DNA from: a virus
Taxonomy: Duplodnaviria; Heunggongvirae; Uroviricota; Caudoviricetes
Strand: one strand, 5' to 3'
IMG/VR virus record: IMGVR_UViG_2974794945_000001
Coordinates: 229,273-293,272 of that record
DNA length: 64,000 nucleotides
The notes under the pieces are model-generated. The model ran no database searches, was not told the DNA's origin, and saw nothing but the letters and a program-made list of their open reading frames with translations. Positions 1 through 62,865 of this stretch are shown here, piece by piece. The position numbers and the translations under genes were made by a program. Position 1 is the first letter of the stretch. Each line of letters opens with the position of its first letter.

Positions 1-1
1 T

Positions 2-1840
<1,839 letters not shown>

Positions 1841-9471: not shown

Positions 9472-10836
9472 ATGACTTTTCAAGATGTGTTGGGCTTTTA
9501 TCATGAAACGCTTAACTTGTTGTCTCATGGGGATTCAACCGTAAAAGGTTTCCTTGTGTTAGGTATCATGGGTGCACTGGGCTGGATTGGTCGTACATGG
9601 CCAGCTATGTTCATTGCATTCATTCGACGTAACATCATTGCGTCTATGACATTCACTCGTGCTGGGTCCTATTCAATGGACCTACAAAACTACGCAGAAT
9701 TCATGCGTTGGTTCAGTGAATCTAAATGGGCAAAGTATGATCGCAATCGTCGAGTAACATTTGACCGCGATAATCCTTATTTTGGACCAGGAGCAGGTTT
9801 TCACTGGTTCATCCATAATGGCCGCTACTTCTGGTTTCATGTGGTGCGTTTGAATTCCTCGGGTACAGATATCGAGAAAGAAGAATTCACCCTTTATACC
9901 TTCGGTCGTGATACTGCTCCGCTGGAAGCAATTGTAGAAGAGTTCCGTATTAAACCATGCAAAAGTTCTATACGTATCTTTGCACCTAATGATGGTGATT
10001 GGAAACGTCAAGGCAAATTGCGTTTGGATGCGGATGAAACTCTCATCATTGACCCGGACGTGGAACAAGAGTTCTTTGGTTCACTGGACTGGTACATTAA
10101 CAATGAGGCATGGTATCGTAAACGTGGTCGTGCTTACAAACACACGGTCATCCTGCACGGCCCACCTGGTACCGGTAAAACGTCTCTGATCAAGCGTGCA
10201 GCGCGTAAGTATAAACGTGACTTGCATTTCTTGAATTTGTCAACACACGGTCGTTCTCTGGCAGAACTGGTAGCTAAATTGCAACCGGGTGACATTCTCT
10301 GCATTGAAGACTTTGATGATGTGCGTTCTTTGCATCGTCGAGTAGAAACCAAAACGGTTGGTGTAACCGATGGTGATGATAGCAAAAGCCCTGGTGCTTT
10401 GCTGATGGATTGTGACATTGCACTGAGCACGTTCTTGAACGTATTGCAAGGTGTTGTGGAACTTGATGACATCATCATTATCATGACTACTAACCACCTG
10501 GAAAAGATTGACCCAGCTGTTTACCGTCGTTCTCGCGTAGACAAATTGATCGAAGTCCTGCCTCTTAAAGATGCAGAGATTAAACGCTACATCGATCAGA
10601 TGTATGATAATCCTACTTACGATCGTAATGTAATGTATCCAGATGTACCGGCTTCTACTTTGTCCGGTATATTCCAGGAACACCCAGACGATCATCTGGC
10701 TTTTATTAATAAGCTAGATTCCTTGGATGATGCGTACATCGCTAACAACTACGCATTACAACCAGAACCTAAACGGCCACCAGTGATTAAAAAGGAACCT
10801 GCTCCTGCATTGGAGGCTGTTGCTCTATCGGAATAG
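9472..10836 (+). CDS. membrane-anchored AAA+ ATPase, Bcs1-like
   Basis: N-terminal TM segment GFLVLGIMGALGWIG. Walker A HGPPGTGKTS. Bcs1-type Walker B ILCIEDFDD (E-D order). Sensor-1 IIMTTN. Arg finger region PAVYRRSRVD. Confidence 0.8.
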   Translation: MTFQDVLGFYHETLNLLSHGDSTVKGFLVLGIMGALGWIGRTWPAMFIAFIRRNIIASMTFTRAGSYSMDLQNYAEFMRWFSESKWAKYDRNRRVTFDRDNPYFGPGAGFHWFIHNGRYFWFHVVRLNSSGTDIEKEEFTLYTFGRDTAPLEAIVEEFRIKPCKSSIRIFAPNDGDWKRQGKLRLDADETLIIDPDVEQEFFGSLDWYINNEAWYRKRGRAYKHTVILHGPPGTGKTSLIKRAARKYKRDLHFLNLSTHGRSLAELVAKLQPGDILCIEDFDDVRSLHRRVETKTVGVTDGDDSKSPGALLMDCDIALSTFLNVLQGVVELDDIIIIMTTNHLEKIDPAVYRRSRVDKLIEVLPLKDAEIKRYIDQMYDNPTYDRNVMYPDVPASTLSGIFQEHPDDHLAFINKLDSLDDAYIANNYALQPEPKRPPVIKKEPAPALEAVALSE

Positions 10837-10841
10837 AATAC

Positions 10842-11183
10842 ATGGAACAGCTCAAACAAAAAGAATTCGACGTCTACCCAGATGAGATGACCTATCACAA
10901 AGATCGATTCCTGCACCCTAGCCGGAAATGTGAACTGGTCCGTTTTGTTGGTGCATTCCATTCGGATCATGTGCTTACAACCGAAGTCGAAGTTATTTGT
11001 CGTGGGAATGAACCGGGCAAGGTAGCACGGTTCTTGGTTCGTTACGGTGATCAAGAAGCTGATTTGATCATGGATTTGGAAACTTGCCGTTACTCTGCAT
11101 CTGTTAACATCAAAACTAAACTAGTCGATGTGATCCTTGTATTCCGCGCAGAATATCGGGAGGCACCAAAGGAAGCAGTATGA
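10842..11183 (+). CDS. hypothetical protein (113 aa)
   Basis: ORF. Confidence 0.5.
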   Translation: MEQLKQKEFDVYPDEMTYHKDRFLHPSRKCELVRFVGAFHSDHVLTTEVEVICRGNEPGKVARFLVRYGDQEADLIMDLETCRYSASVNIKTKLVDVILVFRAEYREAPKEAV

Positions 11184-12124
11184 TTAAAATCGAAGCTACA
11201 ATACCAACAGGTTATGGCAGTACATCAACTCGTTCGGAAGTAAAGATGGGTAAGATGCCTGGTGGTGAACTTCACCCCACAATCCCACCACACCTTGCCT
11301 GCTATCCCGATTACAAACTAATCGCAGATACACGTAGTGCTGAAGACATCATGGCGATCTTGTTGACTGTTGATGCCCTGCGGCGACAATGTGCTACCAA
11401 GAATCCCAGAGTCTCGTTGGAAATTGGTTACGTTCCTTACGCCCGGCAGGATCGGGTTTGTAATCCAGGGGAATCATTGAGCATTGCTGTTTTTGCTGGA
11501 TTGATTAACTCGTTGAATCTTGACGAAGTAATCATTGTTGATCCACACAGTGATGTTACACCTGCATTGATTAACAACGTTACAATTGTTACTCAGACCG
11601 ATGTGTTGAAACAAACACTGATCCGTGAGCATTGTGCTATTTATTATCGGGATGTAGCCATTGATCCAAAAGAATGGATTCTGGTTGCTCCTGATGCGGG
11701 TGCGGTTAAAAAGACCGAAGCTCTGGTAAAAGAGTTTGGTTTTAAAGGGATTGTTTATGCAAGTAAATTGCGTGAACTTTCTACGGGCAAAATTGTTAAG
11801 ACCTCGTTGGACCGTGTTGTCTACGATGGCACCACTCAACCACATGAATCATTGGCTGACCAGAAAGTGTTGATTGTTGATGACATTTGTGATGGTGGTC
11901 GTACATTCCTGGAATTGGCTAAAGTCATCCAGCCTTACGAACCCAAGCAACTGGATCTCTTTGTCACCCACGGGATTTTCTCTCAGGGTCAAAAAGAACT
12001 TTGTAAACATTTCAACCGCGTAATGTCGTCAAACACATATCGCATGGACGCCATCACTGATTTTGATAATCTTGAAATCAATGATCTCCTGGCACTTACC
12101 GAAATTCGTTTTCCCTACCTGTAA
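11180..12124 (+). CDS. ribose-phosphate pyrophosphokinase family protein (Prs-like; candidate ADP-ribose pyrophosphokinase, Adps)
   Basis: DALRRQCATK..IGYVPYARQDR matches Prs N-domain. PRPP-binding loop VLIVDDICDGGRT. 314 aa. Confidence 0.8.
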   Translation: MIKIEATIPTGYGSTSTRSEVKMGKMPGGELHPTIPPHLACYPDYKLIADTRSAEDIMAILLTVDALRRQCATKNPRVSLEIGYVPYARQDRVCNPGESLSIAVFAGLINSLNLDEVIIVDPHSDVTPALINNVTIVTQTDVLKQTLIREHCAIYYRDVAIDPKEWILVAPDAGAVKKTEALVKEFGFKGIVYASKLRELSTGKIVKTSLDRVVYDGTTQPHESLADQKVLIVDDICDGGRTFLELAKVIQPYEPKQLDLFVTHGIFSQGQKELCKHFNRVMSSNTYRMDAITDFDNLEINDLLALTEIRFPYL

Positions 12125-12136
12125 ATAGGAGCTTCA

Positions 12137-13966
12137 ATGAACGCACTCAATGCAGCAACAGCAACCGATTTTTACAAACCTGGTCACGGTCCATTGTACC
12201 CAGCGGGTACTACCCGTAAGTACTCGAACTTCACCCCACGTTCGGCAAAGAACTTTATTCGTTCTAAAAGCTGCTCATCGTTCTACGACAACAAAGTCGT
12301 AAACTTTGGTCTGTACGGCAGCTGGCAAGAACTGGTTGCTTTGTGGGATCGCACGTTCTTCCAGGTTTCCAAAGAGAAAGCCGTCAAAGCCATCAAGCGT
12401 CGTTTTGATAATGCTTGCGGCCCAGACGTTATCTCGGTTGCCCAAATTGCTGCGCTGCATGATGTAGGCTTCCTGCCTGTCACCGTGCTGTCCATCGAAG
12501 AAGGTAATCGTGTTAATGTTGGTATCCCACTGTGGGTTATCTATAACTCGGAAGAATACCCAGAGCACTACTGGCTGGTTAACTACCTGGAAACCGTAAC
12601 CAGTTCTTACAACTGGCAATCCATCACCAATGCCACCATTGCTTACGAATATCGTCGAGTAATGGAACACTGGGCTGAAAAGACTTGCGATAACAATCTG
12701 CACGTCAAGATCCAGGGTCATGATTTCTCGTTCCGTGGGATGCCTGGTCCAGAAGCTGCCGCTCGTTCAAACTCTGGTCACTTGGTTTCGTTCATTGGTA
12801 CTGACACTATCCCAGCAATCGACTACGTGGAAGAATATTACCACGCTGATAGCGATAAAGAAATTCTGGGTGTATCGGTTACTGCAACAGAGCACGCCGT
12901 GGCAACCGCCAACATCCTGACCATGTTCAAGCACCGCTTCGATGCTGTATGGGATGCTAACCACGGGGACATGGACATTGTTGGTCCATTGCTGGATAAA
13001 CTCAAGCTTGAGTGTGAGCGTGATTACATCCGTCAAATCATCACCGAAAAAGTAAACAAGGGCATTATCTCCCTGGTTTGCGATTCGTTCGATTTCTGGG
13101 GCGTCATTGCAGAAGTACTTCCATCACTGCGTACTGAAATTGAAGCTCGGATCAAGAATGAAATTGGTCTGGCTAAAGTTGTAGTGCGTCCTGATTCCGG
13201 TGATCCTGTTAAAGTCATCACTGGTTTTAAACTGGTTGAGTACAACACTGCAAAAGAATTCGATGATGCATTGTATAACCTCGGTTGGGAAGCAGTCAAC
13301 GGCGAAGCTGTCCGGGTAGGTGACAAGTATTACGAACTGCGTAACCACGATGCTCCAAATGCATTCCAGGCTCAGTCAACTTACGAAGACTTCCTGGGTC
13401 GTGAAATGTCTCGCGCAGAAGCTATCGGTGCCATTGATAGCCTCTACGAATCGTTTGGTGGACATGTAAACGGAAAGGGCTACAAAGTCCTGAATGAATA
13501 CATTGGCTTGATCTACGGTGATTCTATTACTGTAGAACGTGCTGAACAAATCTTTGAGCGCCTGGAAGAAAAAGGTTACGCTTCTTCTAACGTTGTTCTG
13601 GGTATTGGTTCGTTCACTTATCAATTCAACACTCGTGATACTTTTGGCATGGCTATGAAAGCCACCGCGTGTGAAGTTAACGCCGAACTGATTGAACTGT
13701 ACAAAGATCCAAAAACTGCTGCTTCCAAGAAATCTGCTAAAGGTTTCCTGCGCGTAGTGCGTGATGCTGCTGGTAACTATACACTGGAACAAGAAGTAGA
13801 AATGGACTGGAAAGATCTGTTCTACGGTTCGGGTGAATTGAAACCACTGTGGCACAACGGTAAGTTCCAGCGCGCTGAGTTCTTCCGTGATGCCCGTGAT
13901 CGTTTGGACCGTACATTTCTGCCTGCAGATACTGCTGCGGTAAATGATGGTTTTGAAGTAGCCTAA
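12137..13966 (+). CDS. nadV: nicotinamide phosphoribosyltransferase family protein (NadV/NAMPT-like; candidate Namat), with about 100-aa extra length
   Basis: NAMPT-family length and motifs (GTDTIPAIDY, GIGSFTYQ). Immediately downstream of the Prs-like gene. Confidence 0.75.
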   Translation: MNALNAATATDFYKPGHGPLYPAGTTRKYSNFTPRSAKNFIRSKSCSSFYDNKVVNFGLYGSWQELVALWDRTFFQVSKEKAVKAIKRRFDNACGPDVISVAQIAALHDVGFLPVTVLSIEEGNRVNVGIPLWVIYNSEEYPEHYWLVNYLETVTSSYNWQSITNATIAYEYRRVMEHWAEKTCDNNLHVKIQGHDFSFRGMPGPEAAARSNSGHLVSFIGTDTIPAIDYVEEYYHADSDKEILGVSVTATEHAVATANILTMFKHRFDAVWDANHGDMDIVGPLLDKLKLECERDYIRQIITEKVNKGIISLVCDSFDFWGVIAEVLPSLRTEIEARIKNEIGLAKVVVRPDSGDPVKVITGFKLVEYNTAKEFDDALYNLGWEAVNGEAVRVGDKYYELRNHDAPNAFQAQSTYEDFLGREMSRAEAIGAIDSLYESFGGHVNGKGYKVLNEYIGLIYGDSITVERAEQIFERLEEKGYASSNVVLGIGSFTYQFNTRDTFGMAMKATACEVNAELIELYKDPKTAASKKSAKGFLRVVRDAAGNYTLEQEVEMDWKDLFYGSGELKPLWHNGKFQRAEFFRDARDRLDRTFLPADTAAVNDGFEVA

Positions 13967-13972
13967 TTGGTT

Positions 13973-14008
13973 GGGTCCCTTCGGGGACCCTTCCTATTTT
14001 CTTTTTTG
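13973..14008 (+). terminator. rho-independent terminator
   Basis: gggtccc-ttcg-gggaccc followed by T-rich run. Confidence 0.65.
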
Positions 14009-14024
14009 TTGTGAGGTATAGTAA

Positions 14025-14609
14025 ATGAGTTGCTGCAATGATTGTAAAAAAGATGAAGGTGAACGAGTGGAGTTTGACGTAGGTATTAACTTCAATACCA
14101 ATAACTCGTATCATCCAGATTTGATTGGAAAAAAGATCAACTTCGTCAGCGGCTTTCTAGTAACAGCTGAAGGGGCAATGCCTAAGGGTGGGTTTCAAAT
14201 ACAGTTCCACAGTTATGGTGCCCGTAAACACATCAACATTTATCGGAACCGCTTACCGTTTGATGAACTGATGGCTACTATTCAGTTTAATGAAACCACA
14301 GGTCATTTTGTGGTACAGCAATTGACTCGGATAGAGTTTGAAAAAGTTCAATTGATTTTTACCAAAGAGCATGTTGAAGAAGTACAGTATCAAGAACTGG
14401 CTCTAGGTGTATACCGTGTACCTAACTTGGATGCAGGTATTCAACTTAGTGGACACTTGGATATCGATGATTACACTTTAACACAACTTCAAATTGGTCT
14501 GCGTAGAATTAATAGCTGGCCAGCGCTGGTATTGCACCATAGTCAAGAACTCTGTGTATTGTTTACTCCCGAACACCCTACTTGGAAAAATGACGCGTTG
14601 TGGCAATAG
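14025..14609 (+). CDS. hypothetical protein (194 aa), N-terminal CC..C cluster
   Basis: ORF. Confidence 0.55.
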   Translation: MSCCNDCKKDEGERVEFDVGINFNTNNSYHPDLIGKKINFVSGFLVTAEGAMPKGGFQIQFHSYGARKHINIYRNRLPFDELMATIQFNETTGHFVVQQLTRIEFEKVQLIFTKEHVEEVQYQELALGVYRVPNLDAGIQLSGHLDIDDYTLTQLQIGLRRINSWPALVLHHSQELCVLFTPEHPTWKNDALWQ

Positions 14610-14632: not shown

Positions 14633-16054
14633 ATGAAACAATATTTGGCAATGCAAAGGGACATTTTGACCCTGGGTACAGAAAAACAAGATCGCACTAA
14701 AACAGGTACGATCTCTTATCCGGGGATGATGGCACGTTACGACATTAGTGATAATCGTCTAGCTGTAACATCAACCAAAAAACTTCATCTGAAAACAGGA
14801 CAAGTTGAAGAAGACTGGATGTTCTCAGGTGATACACGACTAAAGTTTCTGAAAGATAACAACTGTAACATTTGGGATGAATGGGTATTACCTGGTACGG
14901 GTACCTATCGTCTACGTACATTAAAAGAAATGCGTCGTGTATATGTGCGTAACCATTTTGGCTGGGATGAACCAGGCTTCTTTAATGCACCTTTATCAGA
15001 AGAACAAAAGGGCTACTGCAATCTAGTTCATACCGAAATTGATTTTGACATTTACGAAGTGGTACCCACCACATTGTCTAAACCTCGGCACATGGTACTA
15101 GATAAATCAGATCCAAATAAAAATTGGCTTAACTGGATTAATCCTGACGATCCAATGTGGGTTAAGTTCTACACTGGTTTGAATATCTCCGATCAAGAAG
15201 TTGTTGATGGTGAATTGGGTAAAGTGTACGGTGCTATGTTTCGTAGCATTGAAGATACACGCATTGTAAAAGATGCGTCAGCCAAAGAAACATTGGCCAT
15301 GAAAAAACGTGGGTTTACCTTTGAAGGTGAACTGGCAGGCAAGCGTTCTGTGTTTACTCGGAACATTGACCAGCTGGCAAATCTACTGCATGATCTTGAA
15401 CATAACCCAGATTCACGTCGTTTGATTCTTTGCCCATGGAATCCAGCGTATGTGGATGAGCAAGCCTTACCACCTTGCCATTCATTTATTCAATTCTGGA
15501 CACGTGAAATTCCTGCGGAAGAACGTTACAACATTTACGTGAAACGTTTTGAGCGGGAAAAAGCTGAACTGTTTGACGATATTGCTCGCCGGGGGCGGGC
15601 AGATATCTACACAGTCCATGTACCGTATCCACTAAGTTCTTTCATGCATGTTGAAAACGATGCATTGGTTCGTGATGAATATAAACTACATGCCTATTTG
15701 GATGAGCTTAATGTTCCTCGTCGTGGTTTGACCTGTATCTTCTACATGCGCTCCAACGATAACTTTTTGGGTGCTCCGTATAACCTGACGTTTTATTCGT
15801 CGTTGACGCACAAACTTGCTCACCAGTTTAATATGTATGGTGAAGAGCTAGTGCACATGGTCGGTGATGCACACATTTACCTGAACCATTTGGATCAAGT
15901 AAAAGAACAGCAACTGCGTACTCCGGATGAAGATATGCCACGACTAAAGATCAAATGTCCTGTAGGTACTTCCATTCTGGATATGACCTTTAATGATCTT
16001 GAAGTTGTTGGCTACAATCCACAACCGGCTATTCCTGCGCCCGTAGCAGTTTAA
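14633..16054 (+). CDS. thyA: thymidylate synthase (ThyA family) with two large insertions (473 aa)
   Basis: N-terminus MKQYLAMQRDILTLGTEKQDRTKTGT and NIWDEW match ThyA. Active-site region DSRRLILCPWNP...LPPCHSFIQFW. TCIFYMRSNDNFLGAPYNLTFYSSL matches ThyA SCQLYQRSxDxFLGxPFNIASYALL. GDAHIY-NH and C-terminal GYNPQPAIPAPVAV. Confidence 0.85.
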   Translation: MKQYLAMQRDILTLGTEKQDRTKTGTISYPGMMARYDISDNRLAVTSTKKLHLKTGQVEEDWMFSGDTRLKFLKDNNCNIWDEWVLPGTGTYRLRTLKEMRRVYVRNHFGWDEPGFFNAPLSEEQKGYCNLVHTEIDFDIYEVVPTTLSKPRHMVLDKSDPNKNWLNWINPDDPMWVKFYTGLNISDQEVVDGELGKVYGAMFRSIEDTRIVKDASAKETLAMKKRGFTFEGELAGKRSVFTRNIDQLANLLHDLEHNPDSRRLILCPWNPAYVDEQALPPCHSFIQFWTREIPAEERYNIYVKRFEREKAELFDDIARRGRADIYTVHVPYPLSSFMHVENDALVRDEYKLHAYLDELNVPRRGLTCIFYMRSNDNFLGAPYNLTFYSSLTHKLAHQFNMYGEELVHMVGDAHIYLNHLDQVKEQQLRTPDEDMPRLKIKCPVGTSILDMTFNDLEVVGYNPQPAIPAPVAV

Positions 16055-17855: not shown

Positions 17856-19244
17856 TTGATTGCGGTGAGATTGCCGCTTTCAATATCCTACGAGGTCGTT
17901 ACAATGTCTGAAGCAGAAGTTGTACAAAAAGAAATCAAAGCAGGTTTTGGTGTAGTAGAAAAAGATCGTAAACTTGCGCGCATCGTTATCATTGACGATG
18001 TTGTTCCACACCCTAATGCTGAACGCTTGGAACTTGCTGTAATTGGTGGTTGGCAACTCTGTGTCAAATTGGGCGAATACAAGAAAGGTGATCGTGCCGT
18101 TTATTGCGAGATCGATTCCCTGCTACCATTGTCCAACGTAGAACTCTTTGGTTTCCTGGAAGAACGCCGTTCTGATAACCGTCGGGTTGATGGTGTTAAC
18201 TTTCACCGGCTGAAGACTATCAAACTGCGTAAAGAAATTTCACAAGGTCTGTTGGTTCCAGTGCCAGCTAAGTTTAAAGATTCTCCGGTTGATACTAACC
18301 TGACTCTAGAACTGGGTATCTTGAAATACGAACCACGTGCACCAATGGAGCCATCGAACAAAGAAGCTCGCGGTTCTGACTGGTACTCTCGTTTGATTCG
18401 TAAGATCATTGGTAACCTGGATGGTTCACTGATTCCTTGGCCAGCTCAACTGACTAAGTCTGATCAGGACCGAGTACAGAACAAAACTGTTGCCTTCACC
18501 CTGGCTAAAGAAGCCGGTGAAGTATTTGAAGTTACCTACAAGCTTGATGGTAGCTCGATGACTGTGTTCTGCATCAACGATAAAGGTGTCCGTACTGGTG
18601 TGTGTTCTCGTAATTACGAGCTAGGTCTGGGTGAAGGTAATTGGTCGTTCTCTGAACAGCTGCGTCATTGGGTTGGTGCTTTCCTCATCCGTAACCGTAA
18701 AGTAGTTAGCTTGAAGAAAGTTCCTTTGGAAGAAGGTGGTTTCAAACGTAAACTACATTGGACTGGTATTCACATTCCACAGTGGTTGAAAGGTAGCATT
18801 GCTACTGAGAACAACTTCACTCGTTATGTGAAAGAACATGAAGTTACCAAGGCGCTGCGTGAATACCAAGCGCGTACTGGTGAATTCATTACTGTTCAAG
18901 GTGAATTGATTGGTCCGGACATTCAGTCTAACTTTGAAGGTGTAGACAAACACGAATACCACGTGTTCTCTGTGTACCGTAATGGTAACGAAGAAGTCTT
19001 GCCTGAAGAAGCTGAAAAGATTGTTAAAGAACTGGGTCTTACTTACGTTCCAATCTTTGATCGTGCGTTTGTAATCAAACCAGAACAAGGTGTTAAAGAA
19101 ATCCTGGAATTGGCTGAAGGTCAACGTGCTTTCAATCCAAAGAAAGGTACTTACCGTGAAGGTCTGGTATTCAAGTCAAAATCTCGACTGATGTCCTTCA
19201 AAGCCATCAGCAATAGCTACCTTATCAAAAAAGCAGACGAATAA
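17856..19244 (+). CDS. ATP-dependent RNA ligase (covalent nucleotidyltransferase; Rnl-type with N-terminal OB-like domain)
   Basis: Motif I TYKLDGSSMTV (KxDG), motif IV REGLVFK (EGxV), motif V KAISNSYLIKK. N-terminal roughly 110 aa looks like an OB/beta-barrel module as in Rnl5/NgrRnl-type ligases. Confidence 0.6.
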   Translation: MIAVRLPLSISYEVVTMSEAEVVQKEIKAGFGVVEKDRKLARIVIIDDVVPHPNAERLELAVIGGWQLCVKLGEYKKGDRAVYCEIDSLLPLSNVELFGFLEERRSDNRRVDGVNFHRLKTIKLRKEISQGLLVPVPAKFKDSPVDTNLTLELGILKYEPRAPMEPSNKEARGSDWYSRLIRKIIGNLDGSLIPWPAQLTKSDQDRVQNKTVAFTLAKEAGEVFEVTYKLDGSSMTVFCINDKGVRTGVCSRNYELGLGEGNWSFSEQLRHWVGAFLIRNRKVVSLKKVPLEEGGFKRKLHWTGIHIPQWLKGSIATENNFTRYVKEHEVTKALREYQARTGEFITVQGELIGPDIQSNFEGVDKHEYHVFSVYRNGNEEVLPEEAEKIVKELGLTYVPIFDRAFVIKPEQGVKEILELAEGQRAFNPKKGTYREGLVFKSKSRLMSFKAISNSYLIKKADE

Positions 19245-55605: not shown

Positions 55606-56868
55606 TTAACCTTTCACACAGAGGAATTGTTTTAGGGTGTGCACGATTTCAACCAGTTCAGATTGTGCCGCCATTACGTCATCAATGTTCTTGTATGCCT
55701 TAGGGGTTTCATCCAGAACACTTGCATCTTTACGACATTCTACACCAGCTGTATCACGGATATGATCTTCCAGTGTAAAAGTCTTTTCTGCTTGTGTACG
55801 GGACATTACTCGACCTGCACCATGTGAACATGAACAGAACGATTCTCGGTTTCCTTTACCGCGGACAATGAATGACTTAGCACCCATAGAACCTGGAATG
55901 ATCCCCAGTGTTCCTTCACTTGCGTTGACTGCACCTTTACGTGTTACAATAACATTCTCACCAAAGTGGCGTTCTTGTGATACGTAGTTGTGGTGGCAGT
56001 TAATTGCCTCTAGATCCGAATCAATTGGCAGGCCCAGTGTTTTGTGGATGGCATCCAAAGCAGCGTGCATCATCACGGAACGATTTAGTGCAGCAAAGCG
56101 TTGTGCCCAAGATACGGCTTCAACGTAGTCATCGTAGTAACGTGAACCTTCCGGCAGATAAGAAAGATCTTTATCCGGAAGGTGGATAAAGAAACGCCCC
56201 ATTTCTTCTTTGGCTTTGCTAATGAAGTAAGTACCAATAGCGTTACCAATACCACGCGAACCCGAGTGTAGCATAATCCATACACGATCTGTTTCATCAA
56301 GACACAGTTCAATGAAGTGGTTACCCGTACCCAGTGTCCCTACATGGTTCCAAGCACGCTCGGATGCTTTCTTCAATTTAGGGTGGCGTTCAACAATGCT
56401 ATCCAATTGCTTCCGTAGTTTTGCAGCTTCTTCACGAACAGCTACGGTTGGGTGATTGAAGATATTAACGGTACCAAATGCACCACGATCATTCTTACCA
56501 CCATTGTCAGTACGACCATGTGGCACACATGCTTCAATGGCTGCACGAAGATGTCCCAGAGAGTCTGGAAGCGCGTCTGAAGAGAATCTCAGACGTTGTG
56601 CTGCCATTCCGCATCCAATATCAACACCTACCGCAGAAGGGATGATAGCGCCTTTGGTAGCAATAACAGAACCAATGGTTGCACCTTTACCCACATGAAC
56701 GTCTGGCATCACTGCTACGTGGGAATAAATGAATGGCAATGCTGCAATGTTTTTCAATTGCTTTACTGCATCGGGTTCTACTGGTACACCTACGGTCCAG
56801 CCTTTAATTGGCTTAGCTCCGTCAATAGGCTCACCACCTAGAATTTCAAATGTTTTACTCTGTTTCAT
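55606..56868 (-). CDS. rtcB: RtcB family RNA 3'-phosphate/2',3'-cyclic phosphate ligase
   Basis: RtcB motifs: LGTGNHFIEL, metal/GTP-binding residues, CSCSHGAGRVMSR; 420 aa. Confidence 0.85.
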   Translation of the reverse strand: MKQSKTFEILGGEPIDGAKPIKGWTVGVPVEPDAVKQLKNIAALPFIYSHVAVMPDVHVGKGATIGSVIATKGAIIPSAVGVDIGCGMAAQRLRFSSDALPDSLGHLRAAIEACVPHGRTDNGGKNDRGAFGTVNIFNHPTVAVREEAAKLRKQLDSIVERHPKLKKASERAWNHVGTLGTGNHFIELCLDETDRVWIMLHSGSRGIGNAIGTYFISKAKEEMGRFFIHLPDKDLSYLPEGSRYYDDYVEAVSWAQRFAALNRSVMMHAALDAIHKTLGLPIDSDLEAINCHHNYVSQERHFGENVIVTRKGAVNASEGTLGIIPGSMGAKSFIVRGKGNRESFCSCSHGAGRVMSRTQAEKTFTLEDHIRDTAGVECRKDASVLDETPKAYKNIDDVMAAQSELVEIVHTLKQFLCVKG

Positions 56869-60031: not shown

Positions 60032-60117
60032 TGGTGCGGACGAAGAGACTCGAACTCTCACGGGCTAAGCCCGCTGGAACCTAAATCCAGTGCGTCTACC
60101 AATTCCGCCACATCCGC
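60032..60117 (-). tRNA. tRNA-Leu (anticodon UAG), type II, CCA encoded
   Basis: Minus-strand sequence GCGGATGTGGCGGAATTGGTAGACGCACTGGATTTAGGTTCCAGCGGGCTTAGCCCGTGAGAGTTCGAGTCTCTTCGTCCGCACCA. 7-bp acceptor, anticodon stem CTGGA/TCCAG with loop TTTAGGT, long variable arm, T-loop TTCGAGT. Confidence 0.85.
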
Positions 60118-60154
60118 TTGTATATTATTACACTTGTGGTATTCTTTTACAGTA

Positions 60155-60877
60155 TTAGGTTATTTGAATTGACCACTCATTGTTTTCCCAACTGTCTTTT
60201 TGTTTTGTTATAAGAGCTTTATGAATTGTAGTGTAATTTATTTTGGTATATTTAGCAGCATCCATAAGTGTTTCAAATGTGTGAGCTTCGCCTGTAACTT
60301 TATTAGCCGCCATTGTAATAAACCATGTTCTCTTTTTACTAGATATCTTAGGCCATGGTTTTATTGACATGTGTCTGAAAGCGTAGTTGCAATAAGCGTA
60401 TTGTCCAGCCATGTTACCCCGTAAATGTTTGGCTAGGGTAGGTAATGGTACACCATATTTCTCTGCTGCTCGTCGAATAGATTTCTCTGTAAATATCTCA
60501 CCGCTATTAATGTTAAGAATTTGTATTTCTATTGGGATAGGGGTAAGCTTATTATCAACCGCATGAATAACATTACCTGATCCTGTTACCCATTCTAAGT
60601 TAGTTTTTGTATTGTTTGCTTTATTGCCGTCTTTATGATTAACTTCAAGTTGTTTAAATGGAATATGTTGTAAATGCATTGGTCGTTTAACATAGGTAAT
60701 TGCATATATGCGGTGTACTCGATACGCCCTATGTTTCATTCCAGGTGAGGTTAAAACAATATTCATGTATCCTGATTTTGTTTTATGTTGTTTAAGTATT
60801 TTGCATGTTCGGTAATTAAACAATACCCCTTCGGGACTTACTCCGATCCTATTGTCATTTGGAAATGGTTTATACAT
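60155..60877 (-). CDS. HNH homing endonuclease
   Basis: HNH core AYRVHRIYAITYV...LEVNHKDGNKANNTKTNLEWVT; sits between two tRNA genes, as is typical of phage tRNA islands. Confidence 0.75.
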   Translation of the reverse strand: MYKPFPNDNRIGVSPEGVLFNYRTCKILKQHKTKSGYMNIVLTSPGMKHRAYRVHRIYAITYVKRPMHLQHIPFKQLEVNHKDGNKANNTKTNLEWVTGSGNVIHAVDNKLTPIPIEIQILNINSGEIFTEKSIRRAAEKYGVPLPTLAKHLRGNMAGQYAYCNYAFRHMSIKPWPKISSKKRTWFITMAANKVTGEAHTFETLMDAAKYTKINYTTIHKALITKQKDSWENNEWSIQIT

Positions 60878-60946
60878 TTTAAGTCCTGTCTACTATTACA
60901 CTATACAATAGGACATAAAACCAACCCTAAGGTTGGCTATGTTTTT

Positions 60947-61032
60947 TGGTGCCTGAAGGGGGACTCGAACCCACCAATCCCGAAGGCGGGAGTGTTTAAG
61001 ACTCCTATCTATACCAATTCGATCATTCAGGC
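60947..61032 (-). tRNA. tRNA-Leu (anticodon UAA), type II, CCA encoded
   Basis: Minus-strand GCCTGAATGATCGAATTGGTATAGATAGGAGTCTTAAACACTCCCGCCTTCGGGATTGGTGGGTTCGAGTCCCCCTTCAGGCACCA. Anticodon stem GGAGT/ACTCC with loop CTTAAAC. Confidence 0.8.
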
Positions 61033-61039
61033 GTATACT

Positions 61040-61850
61040 TTCTAGAATGGTGTGTCTACCGATTTCACCATCCGGGCTAATTTGATCCAGCATCCAAAAC
61101 GTACAGGTTTGGTTAACAACAAACACAAGGTCGTTGGTAGATCGGTCGCTGGAAGAACCTTTTCATCCTAGTACATAGCCACAACGAACTGCGGTAAACC
61201 GCTAGAGTTGTAACCGGCGAGCTAGGTCTATCTACTTACTCGCCTACAGCGCTTCAGGACGATGGAGGGCAAGTAATTGAGAATCGAGGGTAACCAATTA
61301 GACGCTTTGCTAGCTCCGGCTTTCACGGAGTGCCGACTAACCCATTACCATGACCAGTAGGCAGACTGGGTAGCTGGGACACAAGGTCCAGTTCGGGAAT
61401 ATGGGGTTGCGTGTAAGAAATCAGCCAGGGATCTGAAACATGTTTTCTTACACCAACCAGTGACGGACATCTGATCCGTTGCAGCCGAGTCTGCCGCCTC
61501 TTCGGTATGCGCCTTAGTAACCGGGACTATCCAGTCTTTGGGGTATCATGGGTCGGGCTTTGAGCTTCCCTGTTAACTGACTATTCTAGTCTTTTGTCAG
61601 TCGTCGTAGGGGTTCATTAAAATCTCACACCATGCAGCTCGGTGCCCTAGTCTGAGGATTAATCAGGCATCAGTGTAAGACTTGCCTATCCCTTCCGGGC
61701 TAGGGCTTCACCGTTCCAATGGGCTCGGTGTATGAGATTGATAGTAACGATTTAACGCTCCTTGGCAGCTTTCCCAATTCACGCAACCTTTACCGAACGT
61801 TAGAGGAAACCTCCTTACCCAACATCCGAACTATCTATCTCATGCTCTTG
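61040..61850 (-). other. 0.8-kb ORF-free region (candidate structured RNA, intron-like element or long UTR)
   Basis: No ORF of 60 aa or more in six frames between tRNA-Leu(UAA) and the 224-aa gene. Contains a possible GACTA/TAGTC long-range pair (about 61340 and 61640). Confidence 0.3.
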
Positions 61851-61851
61851 A

Positions 61852-62526
61852 CTACTCGTGAGTAGTTTCTAAACTGTGTATTACGCAAACTGAACCATCG
61901 TCTAACGCGGTCTTGGCGTTGTAATCAATTTGATTATAGACACCACCATGAAATTGGAAGATTCGATCACGCCAAGTACTATCCAGCTTTAAAGCAGGAC
62001 AATCAGATTTACGACCTTCGCACAGAGCGTTGATTGTTACTGAACCTGCTTTAGTTACGTGGAGAGTAATCTTGAACGGCACACCTAGTGGTACGTTTTC
62101 CAAAACAGTAAAGTTATTGATTACTGGATCGGTAAAGCTACTACGGAAACCAGCCGTAAGTTTTCCTTTATTCCAGAAAACTTTCAATGGTGGAGTAGTA
62201 GCATTTTTAACGTGTACTTGAGCAACTACCACTTTCTTAGCTGAGTTAACTCGAACTAATGTCATCTCTTGTCGAGACCAGTGATGTGCGGCACTATCCA
62301 TAGGCCAGTAGTTTGCTTCTTTCCATTCACACCGCGTACGATGTGTACTTTTACTAGATGCACCTAATGTTGGTGCTGAGAGTTGTATCGAACCGTCTTC
62401 TAATTGACTGATCACATCCGCACACTTCACCAAGGCCTCTGAACCAATTAATTCCCAAGCAACAGGATTATTGATACTGACCGGTAAGGGAGTGGCTATT
62501 AAGTAATGATTAATGTCAACTAACAT
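61852..62526 (-). CDS. hypothetical protein (224 aa)
   Basis: ORF downstream of the tRNA cluster on the minus strand. Confidence 0.55.
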   Translation of the reverse strand: MLVDINHYLIATPLPVSINNPVAWELIGSEALVKCADVISQLEDGSIQLSAPTLGASSKSTHRTRCEWKEANYWPMDSAAHHWSRQEMTLVRVNSAKKVVVAQVHVKNATTPPLKVFWNKGKLTAGFRSSFTDPVINNFTVLENVPLGVPFKITLHVTKAGSVTINALCEGRKSDCPALKLDSTWRDRIFQFHGGVYNQIDYNAKTALDDGSVCVIHSLETTHE

Positions 62527-62547
62527 TTCTTTACTCTCTTTTAATAG

Positions 62548-62690
62548 GTGGAGCGTCCTAGTCTAACTAGACGACAGCTAATGCTGATTGGATTTGCACC
62601 AATGTACTCCGGGTACGAGAGTGTCCTTGGCCACTAGACGAACTACCCTAATGGATAGTAACGGGGTCGAACCGTTGTTTCTCTCTATCA
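62548..62690 (-). pseudogene. tRNA-like remnants (canonical T-arm AACGG-TTCGACC-CCGTT; internal about 20-nt direct repeat), no complete cloverleaf found by eye
   Basis: Minus strand directly 3' of tRNA-Ser carries a perfect T-arm plus ACTATCCA tail. CATTAG..TCGTCTAGT occurs twice, 72 nt apart. Confidence 0.3.
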
Positions 62691-62691
62691 C

Positions 62692-62783
62692 TGGAGGAAG
62701 AATAGGGATTTGAACCCTAGGGCAGTCCTTAGACCACCAGAGCTTTAGCAAAGCCCCTCGTTAAACCACTCCGACATTCTTCC
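62692..62783 (-). tRNA. tRNA-Ser (anticodon GCU), type II, CCA encoded
   Basis: Minus-strand GGAAGAATGTCGGAGTGGTTTAACGAGGGGCTTTGCTAAAGCTCTGGTGGTCTAAGGACTGCCCTAGGGTTCAAATCCCTATTCTTCCTCCA. Anticodon loop TTGCTAA. Confidence 0.8.
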
Positions 62784-62789
62784 TGTAAT

Positions 62790-62865
62790 TGGCGGGCTAT
62801 GATGGACTCGAACCACCAACACGCGGCTTTGGAGGCCGCTGTTCTGCCAATTGAACTAATAACCC
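62790..62865 (-). tRNA. tRNA-Trp (anticodon CCA), CCA end encoded
   Basis: Minus-strand GGGTTATTAGTTCAATTGGCAGAACAGCGGCCTCCAAAGCCGCGTGTTGGTGGTTCGAGTCCATCATAGCCCGCCA. Anticodon stem GCGGC/GCCGC with loop CTCCAAA. Confidence 0.8.

What the first reader, a model, noticed from the sequence alone, without database searches (positions are those of the whole stretch)
11180..13966. Adjacent Prs-like and NAMPT-like genes: candidate NARP1-type NAD+ reconstitution (anti-defense) module
A PRPP-synthetase-family gene (Prs fold, PRPP loop VLIVDDICDGGRT) lies 13 nt upstream of a NadV/NAMPT-family gene, co-oriented. This matches the two-gene NARP1 pathway described in phages, where an ADP-ribose pyrophosphokinase (Adps, Prs homolog) and a nicotinamide ADPR transferase (Namat, NAMPT homolog) rebuild NAD+ from ADPR and nicotinamide. 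That pathway defeats NAD-depleting defenses such as Thoeris, DSR and SIR2-HerA. The alternative is plain PRPP plus NAMPT salvage. No NMN adenylyltransferase/Nudix (NatV) gene was seen nearby, which favours NARP1. The NAMPT-like protein is about 100 aa longer than the typical roughly 490-aa NadV.
Basis: partly seen in the sequence, partly recalled or inferred. Interest (0 to 1): 0.75.

Follow-up and report, generated by a model that had tools for sequence, protein, structure and literature searches.

The report
Known phage NAD+-rebuilding gene pair (NARP1)

Summary
The window is Pseudomonas phage Psa21, a 305-kb nucleus-forming jumbo phage. The two ORFs exist as described (11180-12124, 314 aa; 12137-13966, 609 aa). 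They are co-oriented with a 12-nt gap, not 13. Every sequence-level NARP1 feature I could test is met.

- **gp304 (Namat):** it carries the published ADPR-PP clamp signature (GSFTYQFNTRD), and all NAD-contact residues of the SPbetaL1 Namat crystal structure are conserved or conservatively substituted.
- **gp303 (Adps):** it falls below all canonical Prs model cut-offs, exactly as biochemically proven Adps proteins do. It keeps the catalytic lysine and shares the DDICDGGRT loop with Bas63 Adps.
- **Gene linkage:** in 77 of 80 related viral loci an Adps gene lies close to the Namat gene, co-oriented.
- **NMNAT:** no homologue exists anywhere in the genome.
- **Extra length:** the ~100 extra residues are clade-typical, structured insertions. 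The validated Bas63 Namat is 593 aa.

Osterman et al. 2024 already list both Psa21 genes as Adps and Adps-associated Namat homologues, so this is already known, although it has not been tested experimentally in Psa21.

One caveat: a true bacterial Nampt (H. ducreyi NadV) nests inside the Namat clade. The call therefore rests on the clamp motif and Adps linkage, not on the tree.

The parts
11180..12124 (+). adps (Psa21 gp303, 314 aa): Prs-family ADP-ribose pyrophosphokinase, first enzyme of NARP1
   Evidence: ORF. It scores 105.5 bits on TIGR01251 (cut-off 113), like SPbetaL1 Adps at 106.0, versus 422.7 for E. coli Prs. It is 35% identical to Bas63 Adps with an identical DDICDGGRT loop. K196 aligns with catalytic K162 of SPbetaL1 Adps. 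It is listed in Osterman 2024 Table S1 with 'Namat within 10 genes: Yes'.
12137..13966 (+). namat (Psa21 gp304, 609 aa): Nampt-family nicotinamide ADP-ribose transferase, second enzyme of NARP1
   Evidence: ORF. It scores 350 bits to the SPbetaL1 Namat crystal chains 9w5x/9w5w versus ~159 to human/mouse Nampt. The clamp motif is GSFTYQFNTRD at residues 491-501. All NAD-contact residues are conserved. The AF2 model has pLDDT 94.3 and its best structural match is 9w5x at TM 0.94. It is listed as 'Adps-associated' in Osterman 2024 Table S2.
11171..11183 (+). Translational-coupling junction: GGAAG ribosome-binding site (11171-11175) and the ATGA overlap of the gp302 stop with the adps start (11180-11183)
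   Evidence: Read directly from the sequence and ORF coordinates.
12125..12136 (+). 12-nt adps-namat intergenic spacer containing an AGGAG ribosome-binding site (12127-12131)
   Evidence: Read directly from the sequence.
13973..14010 (+). Intrinsic-terminator-like hairpin GGGTCCC-TTCG-GGGACCC (13973-13990) followed by a T-rich tract, starting 7 nt after the namat stop codon. It probably marks the end of the transcription unit.
   Evidence: Terminator scan: 7 pairs, 6 of them G-C, tetraloop; sequence. Terminator-like sites are not enriched in the region overall (7 found versus 7.7 expected), so only the position and strength of this one are suggestive.

Best explanation
gp303 and gp304 form a two-gene NARP1 cassette. 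When an NAD-depleting defence (Thoeris, DSR1/2, SIR2-HerA and similar) cleaves NAD+ into ADP-ribose and nicotinamide, gp303 (Adps) uses ATP to pyrophosphorylate the free ribose of ADPR, giving ADPR-pyrophosphate. gp304 (Namat) then swaps that pyrophosphate for nicotinamide and regenerates NAD+ in one step, with no NMN intermediate and no NMNAT. The two genes are expressed together as the last two genes of a tightly packed co-directional string: an ATGA start/stop overlap upstream, a 12-nt spacer with a ribosome-binding site between them, and a strong hairpin plus T-tract after namat. What is shown here: the gene anatomy, family membership, the conserved catalytic and clamp residues, the linkage statistics and the absence of NMNAT. 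What is inferred from homologues: the enzymatic activities and the anti-defence role, demonstrated for Bas63, SPbetaL1, FADO and DyoEdafos but not for Psa21.
For: Namat side:
- Among 79 viral homologues with a readable motif (nearly all Adps-linked), position 3 is Y/F in 79 of 79. In the 118 KVP40-type Nampts with a readable motif, position 3 is G/A in 116 and position 5 is L in 116.
- F189, R192, D215, R306, D308, G360-D361, G390-S391, F392, Y396, T398, R399 and D400 of SPbetaL1 Namat are conserved or conservatively replaced in Psa21.
- gp304 scores 350 bits to Namat crystal chains versus ~159 to Nampt. The best structural match is also the Namat crystals.

Adps side:
- TIGR01251 gives 105.5 bits, below the 113 cut-off. 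SPbetaL1 Adps scores 106.0 and E. coli Prs 422.7.
- K196 aligns with K162 of SPbetaL1 Adps, and the Adps-specific consensus residues are all present.
- phrog_12872 matches gp303 and gp304 in successive, non-overlapping parts of its profile, which suggests a fused Adps-Namat family.

Context:
- 77 of 80 loci have a co-oriented Adps near the Namat gene.
- In phage BRkr the pair is kept adjacent while the flanking genes differ.
- No NMNAT is annotated in the genome, phmmer with NatV, NadD and NadR gives E >= 0.12, and there is no HxGH motif, with a working positive control.
- Osterman 2024 Tables S1 and S2 list both genes.
Against: - No experiment has been done on Psa21 itself.
- The variable clamp loop (SCL) deviates. 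Its third residue is K38, as in Bas63, but the next residue is N39, not an aromatic (Bas63 has W). F40 follows, and the loop is the longest in my sample at 21 aa. Which residue stacks on adenine is therefore unknown.
- Position 7 of the clamp helix is F instead of the usual Y. This is seen in 10 of 79 relatives.
- Phylogeny alone is not decisive. H. ducreyi NadV, a real Nampt, nests inside the Namat-type clade.
- Namat enzymes keep some PRPP-dependent NMN-forming activity in vitro (PMC12774641), so the two readings are not fully exclusive.
- My Adps-versus-Prs residue comparison used a single Prs sequence, from E. coli.
Confidence: 0.87

Rival explanations
1. Ordinary salvage: gp303 is a divergent PRPP synthetase and gp304 a true Nampt/NadV. 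Together they make NMN from ribose-5-phosphate and nicotinamide, and host enzymes (NMN deamidase with NadD/NadE, or a host NMNAT) finish NAD+ synthesis.
For: GenBank and RefSeq annotate the genes this way. NCBIfam NF006629 and Pfam PF04095 cannot tell Namat from Nampt. Namat retains PRPP-dependent NMN formation in vitro (PMC12774641). A genuine Nampt, H. ducreyi NadV, sits inside the same clade.
Against: The clamp residues lost in H. ducreyi NadV (GAQTYQRNTRD) and absent in KVP40 Nampt (GGGLLQQLDRD) are intact in Psa21. gp303 fails every canonical Prs model cut-off, just as proven Adps proteins do, and SPbetaL1 Adps gave no product in the PRPP-synthetase control assay. According to Osterman 2024, 94% of phages with a true Nampt also encode Nmnat, and Psa21 has none. 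gp304 lacks the PF18127 NAMPT_N hit that all 120 KVP40-type homologues carry.
Confidence: 0.06
2. Same NARP1 chemistry, but selected mainly as housekeeping NAD+ supply for the phage's own NAD-dependent enzymes (for example the NAD-dependent DNA ligase gp285, about 10 kb upstream) and not as counter-defence.
For: An NAD-dependent DNA ligase is encoded at the start of the window. A survey of gut jumbo phages reports that more than half of those with NAD-synthesis genes also encode an NAD-dependent ligase (PMC11662467).
Against: From established enzymology, NAD-dependent ligases release AMP and NMN, not ADPR and nicotinamide, so NARP1 cannot recycle ligase by-products. It needs the products of an NADase. 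In the discovery paper, ADPR-PP appeared only when a defence system was present. The ligase is not part of the cassette: it lies about 10 kb and 17 genes away.
Confidence: 0.07

Closest known systems
NARP1 of Escherichia phage Bas63 / JohannRWettstein (bas63_0079 Adps + bas63_0080 Namat), validated in vivo by Osterman et al. 2024
   Same: Same gene order and orientation. The Adps ribose-phosphate loop DDICDGGRT is identical. Both have a long-form Namat (593 versus 609 aa) with insertions at the same two sites, K at the third SCL position, S at the position of SPbetaL1 A362, and a GS-aromatic-T-Y-Q-aromatic-x-TRD clamp helix.
   Different: Identity is only 35% (Adps) and 39% (Namat). The Psa21 SCL is 5 aa longer and has N-F where Bas63 has W-F. 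The spacer is 12 nt versus 45 nt. The host phage is a 305-kb nucleus-forming jumbo phage, not an 87-kb Felixounavirus.
NARP1 of Bacillus phage SPbetaL1 (Adps WIT26982, Namat WIT26983; crystal structures 9W5X/9W5W)
   Same: This is the highest-scoring solved relative of gp304: 350 bits, 43% identity, TM 0.94. All NAD-contact residues are shared, and the clamp helix differs by one conservative residue (GSFTYQYNTRD versus GSFTYQFNTRD). Catalytic K162 of Adps is conserved.
   Different: The SPbetaL1 Namat is the short form (491 aa). Its SCL is 12 aa versus 21, Ins1 is 13 versus 44, and Ins2 is 17 versus 73. Its SCL stacking residue is R40, where Psa21 has K38. Its Adps loop is DDLSSFGGT, and Adps identity is only 30%.
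NARP2 of Vibrio phage KVP40 (NadV Nampt + NatV Nmnat/Nudix)
   Same: Same Nampt superfamily fold and catalytic core, and the same overall purpose of restoring NAD+ during infection.
   Different: KVP40 Nampt has GGGLLQQLDRD with no aromatic clamp, a 9-aa SCL equivalent, a 5-aa Ins2 equivalent, and a PF18127 hit. It prefers PRPP and needs NatV. Psa21 has no NatV, NadD or NadR homologue. The two groups split at 100/100 bootstrap.
NARP1-AP (Adps-Adpp-Namat, Vibrio phage Gary; Osterman et al. 2026 preprint)
   Same: Same two core enzymes. Psa21 does encode a Macro-domain protein (gp123) in the same PHROG (phrog_335) as the macro proteins embedded in NARP1 operons of other phages.
   Different: In Psa21 the macro gene is about 135 kb from the cassette and outside this window. 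Its best solved relatives are DarG antitoxin macrodomains. Its substrate is unknown.
Canonical Prs plus bacterial NadV (for example E. coli Prs; Haemophilus ducreyi NadV, PDB 9KE8)
   Same: Same two protein superfamilies. H. ducreyi NadV is even nested among Namat-type sequences in my tree.
   Different: Real Prs scores 423-533 bits on Prs models, versus 105 or less for gp303. H. ducreyi NadV has lost the aromatic clamp (GAQTYQRNTRD) that Psa21 keeps.

Membership tests
NARP1 (Adps + Namat) | [quoted passage not shown] | tested here: met
   Psa21 residues 491-501 read GSFTYQFNTRD: F at 3, T at 4, Y at 5, Q at 6, F at 7, N at 8, then TRD. KVP40 Nampt has GGGLLQQLDRD and H. ducreyi NadV has GAQTYQRNTRD.
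NARP1 (Adps + Namat) | Namat variable clamp loop (SCL): lengthened beta1-beta2 loop whose third residue is R/K/Y and which supplies a stacking residue | tested here: inconclusive
   The loop is lengthened (21 aa versus a median of 9 in the Nampt type) and the third residue is K38, as in Bas63. The fourth residue is N39, not aromatic (Bas63 has W), and F40 follows. The S-A-K-N-F stretch is conserved across the Psa21 clade. Which residue stacks would need a ligand-bound model.
NARP1 (Adps + Namat) | Intact Nampt-like catalytic core in Namat (SPbetaL1 F189, R192, D215, catalytic His, R306, D308) | tested here: met
   F197, R200, D223, H253, R351 and D353 are conserved in Psa21, and most are invariant across 75 homologues.
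NARP1 (Adps + Namat) | Adps: a Prs-family protein that falls outside canonical Prs yet keeps the catalytic flexible-loop lysine (SPbetaL1 K162) | tested here: met
   It is below the cut-off on all 11 NCBIfam Prs models (best 105.5 versus a cut-off of 113), like SPbetaL1 Adps at 106.0, while E. coli Prs scores 423-533. K196 and R198 align with K162 and R164. phmmer gives 118.9 bits to Bas63 Adps and 40.9 to E. coli Prs.
NARP1 (Adps + Namat) | adps and namat adjacent and co-oriented (97% of Adps-clade genes have Namat in the immediate vicinity, per Osterman 2024) | tested here: met
   The gap is 12 nt on the same strand. The same arrangement holds in 77 of 80 related viral loci and in phage BRkr.
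NARP1 (Adps + Namat) | Inclusion in the reference catalogue of the family | tested here: met
   MK552327_00303 is in Table S1 (Adps homologs; Namat within 10 genes: Yes). MK552327_00304 is in Table S2 with genomic environment 'Adps-associated'.
NARP1 (Adps + Namat) | Enzymatic activities (ADPR + ATP to ADPR-PP; ADPR-PP + nicotinamide to NAD+) and rescue of phage from NAD-depleting defences | not testable with these tools
   This needs protein biochemistry and plaque assays. It has been shown only for homologues (Bas63, SPbetaL1, FADO, DyoEdafos, P. foliorum).
NARP2 (Nampt + Nmnat) | An Nmnat (NatV, NadM, NadR or NadD type) encoded in the same phage genome | tested here: not met
   None is annotated among the 428 features. 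phmmer --max with KVP40 NatV, E. coli NadD and E. coli NadR against all 1,980 stop-to-stop ORFs gives a best E of 0.12, on an SbcC P-loop. There is no HxGH motif. The positive control on KVP40 works. The annotated 'nucleotidyltransferase' gp049 is an RlaP protein.
NARP2 (Nampt + Nmnat) | Nampt-type active-site entrance (GG[GA]LLQ...[ND]RD, short SCL equivalent) and a PF18127 NAMPT_N hit | tested here: not met
   The motif and loop lengths differ. gp304 hits only PF04095, while all 120 KVP40-type homologues carry PF04095 plus PF18127.
Canonical ribose-phosphate pyrophosphokinase (Prs) | Scores above the curated cut-off of a Prs family model | tested here: not met
   TIGR01251 gives 105.5 against a cut-off of 113, and every other Prs model is far below its cut-off. 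Pfam Pribosyltran_N gives only 28.9 bits over 57 residues.
NARP1-AP (NARP1 with associated phosphatase) | Macro-domain ADPR-1''-phosphate phosphatase (Adpp) encoded in the NARP1 operon | tested here: not met
   No Macro-domain gene lies in or next to the cassette; the neighbours gp302 and gp305 have no Pfam or PHROG hits. A Macro protein of the same PHROG exists about 135 kb away (gp123). Its role is unresolved.

The most novel reading that the evidence does not exclude
Psa21 may run an 'unlinked' extended pathway: the distal DarG/TARG1-class macrodomain gp123 could act as the ADPR-1''-phosphate phosphatase that feeds NARP1, giving a split NARP1-AP. In addition, the two structured insertions of the long-form Namat (a helical hairpin and a small alpha/beta subdomain), shared by many Gram-negative-phage Namats, might have a role of their own. 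That role could be regulation, partner binding, or localisation relative to the phage nucleus, whose NAD-dependent ligase must be supplied with NAD+.
Probability: 0.12. Interest if true: 0.45.

Novelty: already known. Interest (0 to 1): 0.2.

Why it matters
Confirming NARP1 in Psa21 corrects the database labels: both GenBank and RefSeq still call these genes Prs and NAMPT. It also predicts that this biocontrol candidate against kiwifruit canker can overcome NAD-depleting defences such as Thoeris, DSR and SIR2-HerA in Pseudomonas syringae, which is useful when choosing phages for cocktails. In a nucleus-forming phage the pairing makes sense: the protein shell protects the DNA from nucleases, but it cannot protect against metabolite depletion. 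None of this changes what is known about the pathway.

Tried and rejected
- **Fold comparison as a discriminator.** The AF2 model matches Namat crystals best (TM 0.94), but Nampts follow at 0.90, so fold comparison is too weak to decide.
- **Phylogeny as a discriminator.** KVP40-type Nampts separate at 100/100 bootstrap. Adding H. ducreyi NadV showed that a real Nampt nests inside the Namat-type clade, so I do not rest the call on the tree.
- **NCBIfam and Pfam.** Neither has Namat- or Adps-specific models. NF006629 scores Namat and Nampt alike.
- **A KVP40 NadV query on viral contigs.** It returned only 2 near-identical loci, so it gave no contrast set with genomic context.
- **The ~900-aa homologues as Adps-Namat fusions.** They are not. 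They carry a ~275-aa insert inside Namat.
- **gp302 and gp305 as extra pathway components.** Homologues exist only in the three closest phages (Psa21, D6, RVTF4) and in one metagenomic relative. They are absent from the ~2,000 other Namat-encoding phages.
- **Sigma-70 promoter scan.** It found fewer sites than shuffled controls (9 versus 16.7) and is uninformative for a phage with its own RNA polymerases.
- **My first two motif regular expressions.** Both were off by one and returned nothing. I corrected this.
Full report
**Identity of the window and check of the observation.** The region is 100% identical to Pseudomonas phage Psa21 (MK552327 / NC_062581). Psa21 is a 305,260-bp jumbo phage of P. 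syringae pv. actinidiae, and window position equals record position minus 229,272. Pfam gives Pribosyltran plus Pribosyltran_N for the first and NAPRTase for the second. PHROGs gives 'ribose-phosphate pyrophosphokinase' and 'nicotinamide phosphoribosyl transferase', which is also how RefSeq annotates them (gp303, gp304). The only error is the spacer, which is 12 nt and not 13.

**Anatomy.**
- The stop codon of the upstream ORF gp302 overlaps the gp303 start (ATGA at 11180-11183), with GGAAG four bases upstream.
- The 12-nt gp303-gp304 spacer carries AGGAG five bases before the ATG.
- Seven bases after the gp304 stop lies the strongest terminator-like element of the region, GGGTCCC-TTCG-GGGACCC followed by a T-rich tract (13973-14010).

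The pair therefore looks like the last two cistrons of a tightly packed co-directional string. The sigma-70 promoter scan was uninformative (9 sites versus 16.7 in shuffles), as expected for a phage with its own RNA polymerases.

**What defines the known pathway.** Osterman et al. (bioRxiv 10.1101/2024.02.11.579819) showed that a Prs homologue (Adps) pyrophosphorylates ADPR to ADPR-PP. A Nampt homologue (Namat) then joins ADPR-PP to nicotinamide to give NAD+. In their data 97% of Adps-clade genes have Namat in the immediate vicinity, and the alternative pathway NARP2 pairs a true Nampt with an Nmnat. Lan et al. (PMC12774641) solved the SPbetaL1 Namat structure. They defined a 'selectivity clamp' made of a conserved helix with the signature GS-X-Phi1-X-Phi2-X-Phi3-TRD (aromatics at positions 3 and 7) and a variable, lengthened beta1-beta2 loop (SCL) whose third residue is R/K/Y.

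**Namat test.**
- Aligned with the validated Namats and with KVP40 Nampt, Psa21 reads GSFTYQFNTRD. SPbetaL1 reads GSFTYQYNTRD, Bas63 GSYTYQYMTRD and KVP40 Nampt GGGLLQQLDRD.
- All listed NAD-contact residues of the SPbetaL1 structure are identical or conservatively replaced: D11, Y13, F197, S198, R200, D223, A250, R351, D353, G461, D462, S463, G491, S492, F493, F497, T499, R500 and D501. R40 is K38, as in Bas63.
- Against solved structures by sequence, gp304 scores 350 bits to the Namat crystals 9W5X/9W5W and about 159 to mammalian Nampt.
- I fetched 80 viral loci encoding relatives. Of these, 77 carry a co-oriented Adps homologue nearby, and the other three are truncated contigs.
- Among the 79 with a readable motif, position 3 is Y/F in all, position 5 is aromatic in 77, and position 7 is Y/F in 64.
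- Of 120 homologues of KVP40 Nampt, the 118 with a readable motif have G/A at position 3 in 116 and L at position 5 in 116. All 120 carry a PF18127 hit that gp304 and its relatives lack.

**Phylogeny and its limit.** A neighbour-joining tree of 169 sequences separates the 58 KVP40-type Nampts from 111 Namat-type sequences (including Psa21, Bas63 and SPbetaL1) in 100 of 100 bootstraps. The fold search then revealed that PDB 9KE8 is Haemophilus ducreyi NadV, a genuine Nampt. When I added its sequence it nested inside the Namat-type clade next to SPbetaL1. Its nearest viral neighbours keep the aromatic clamp, while NadV itself reads GAQTYQRNTRD. Clade position alone is therefore not proof of ADPR-PP specificity. 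The clamp residues and the Adps linkage carry the argument, and Psa21 has both.

**Adps test.**
- gp303 is 35% identical to Bas63 Adps, 30% to SPbetaL1 Adps and 22% to E. coli Prs. Its DDICDGGRT loop is identical to that of Bas63.
- On NCBIfam it falls below the cut-off of all 11 Prs models. TIGR01251 gives 105.5 bits against a cut-off of 113. SPbetaL1 Adps scores 106.0, Bas63 Adps 138.5 and E. coli Prs 422.7.
- K196 and R198 align with SPbetaL1 K162 (K162A is inactive) and R164.
- The residues conserved at 85% or more among 78 Adps-type sequences but different in E. coli Prs are all present in gp303. This last comparison uses a single Prs sequence and is the weakest part of the case.
- phrog_12872 matches gp303 and gp304 in successive parts of its profile, consistent with fused Adps-Namat proteins such as the one in Shigella phage Ag3 in Table S1.

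I assembled the whole genome from six further fetches. No NMNAT is annotated among the 428 features. A phmmer --max search with KVP40 NatV, E. coli NadD and E. coli NadR against all 1,980 stop-to-stop ORFs gave nothing better than E = 0.12, on an SbcC P-loop. There is no HxGH signature, and NadD and NadR did cross-detect NatV in the control. The annotated 'nucleotidyltransferase' gp049 is an RlaP RNA-repair protein, and the 'phosphohydrolase' gp147 is an HD-domain protein.

**The extra ~100 residues.** They come from a longer SCL (21 versus 12 aa in SPbetaL1), Ins1 after the catalytic histidine (44 versus 13), Ins2 after the RPDSGDPV strand (73 versus 17), and a short C-terminal tail.
- The validated Bas63 Namat is 593 aa and has insertions at the same sites.
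- Ins2 is 5 aa in all 58 Nampt-type sequences, but has a median of 62 aa (range 17-147) in the Namat-type set. That set is biased toward relatives of Psa21.
- An AlphaFold2 model (pLDDT 94.3, pTM 0.92) predicts both insertions to be ordered: a helical hairpin (253-305) and a small alpha/beta subdomain (366-424).

The length is therefore a clade trait and not an anomaly. What the insertions do is unknown.

**Neighbours.** gp302 and gp305 have no family hits. Their homologues occur only in Psa21, D6, RVTF4 and one metagenomic relative. Phage BRkr keeps the pair adjacent but with different flanking genes. I therefore treat the cassette as two genes.

**Prior knowledge and verdict.** Both genes are already listed in the discovery paper. 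MK552327_00303 is in Table S1 ('Adps homologs', Namat within 10 genes: Yes). MK552327_00304 is in Table S2 ('Adps-associated'). The 2019 Psa21 genome announcement does not mention them.

Noticed in passing
outside the window: NC_062581 105304-105780 (+), L090:5304-5780 (Psa21 gp123): A 158-aa Macro-domain protein. Its best solved relatives are DarG antitoxin macrodomains (5m3i, 85 bits). It belongs to the same PHROG (phrog_335) as macro proteins that sit inside or right after NARP1 operons in other phages (L038:9483-9950, L032:11750-12247, L011:11874-12353). It could be an unlinked ADPR-1''-phosphatase (Adpp) or an anti-DarT enzyme.
   Followed up: partly
not in the window: PDB 9KE8 (Haemophilus ducreyi NadV) versus loci L030, L059 and L003:46130-47605: A bona fide bacterial Nampt nests within the phage Namat-type clade next to SPbetaL1 Namat. 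It has lost the aromatic clamp (GAQTYQRNTRD), while its nearest viral neighbours keep it. This suggests that this bacterial NadV derives from a phage Namat-like ancestor.
   Followed up: partly
proteins P0016, P0054, P0089 (about 900 aa; metagenomic homologues of gp304): These are not Adps-Namat fusions. Each carries an insert of about 275 aa inside Namat, near the conserved RPDSG strand and Ins2 site. It may be an intein or another mobile insertion. Table S2 of Osterman 2024 also shows Namat genes split into two ORFs in several phages.
   Followed up: partly
window 1-1840 (+), 5' end cut by the window edge (Psa21 gp285): An NAD-dependent DNA ligase (LigA-type) is encoded about 10 kb upstream of the NARP1 pair. 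It is a direct phage consumer of NAD+ in a nucleus-forming phage (chimallin gp056 and PhuZ gp027 are elsewhere in the genome).
   Followed up: no
window 14633-16054 (+) (gp306): This thymidylate synthase is 473 aa, far longer than the ~266-position Pfam model. The Pfam match is split in two, with residues 2-290 covering only profile positions 1-154, so the protein contains large insertions.
   Followed up: no
window 9472-10836 (+) (gp301): Annotated 'cell division protein FtsH', but Pfam shows BCS1_N plus an AAA domain, so it is a BCS1-like AAA+ ATPase. Homologues form phrog_7485, of unknown function.
   Followed up: no
window 17904-19244 (+), 55606-56868 (-), 60032-62865 (-): RNA-repair-type genes (RNA ligase gp312; RtcB-type 'tRNA splicing ligase' gp396) and a tRNA cluster interrupted by an HNH endonuclease gene. 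An RlaP protein (gp049) lies elsewhere in the genome. Together they hint at counter-measures against tRNA-cleaving defences.
   Followed up: no
window 10842-11183 (+) and 14025-14609 (+) (gp302, gp305): Two ORFs of unknown function flank the cassette. gp302 overlaps the adps start by ATGA, and gp305 begins with a Cys-rich MSCCNDC. Both are conserved only in the closest jumbo relatives (D6, RVTF4 and one IMG/VR contig).
   Followed up: yes
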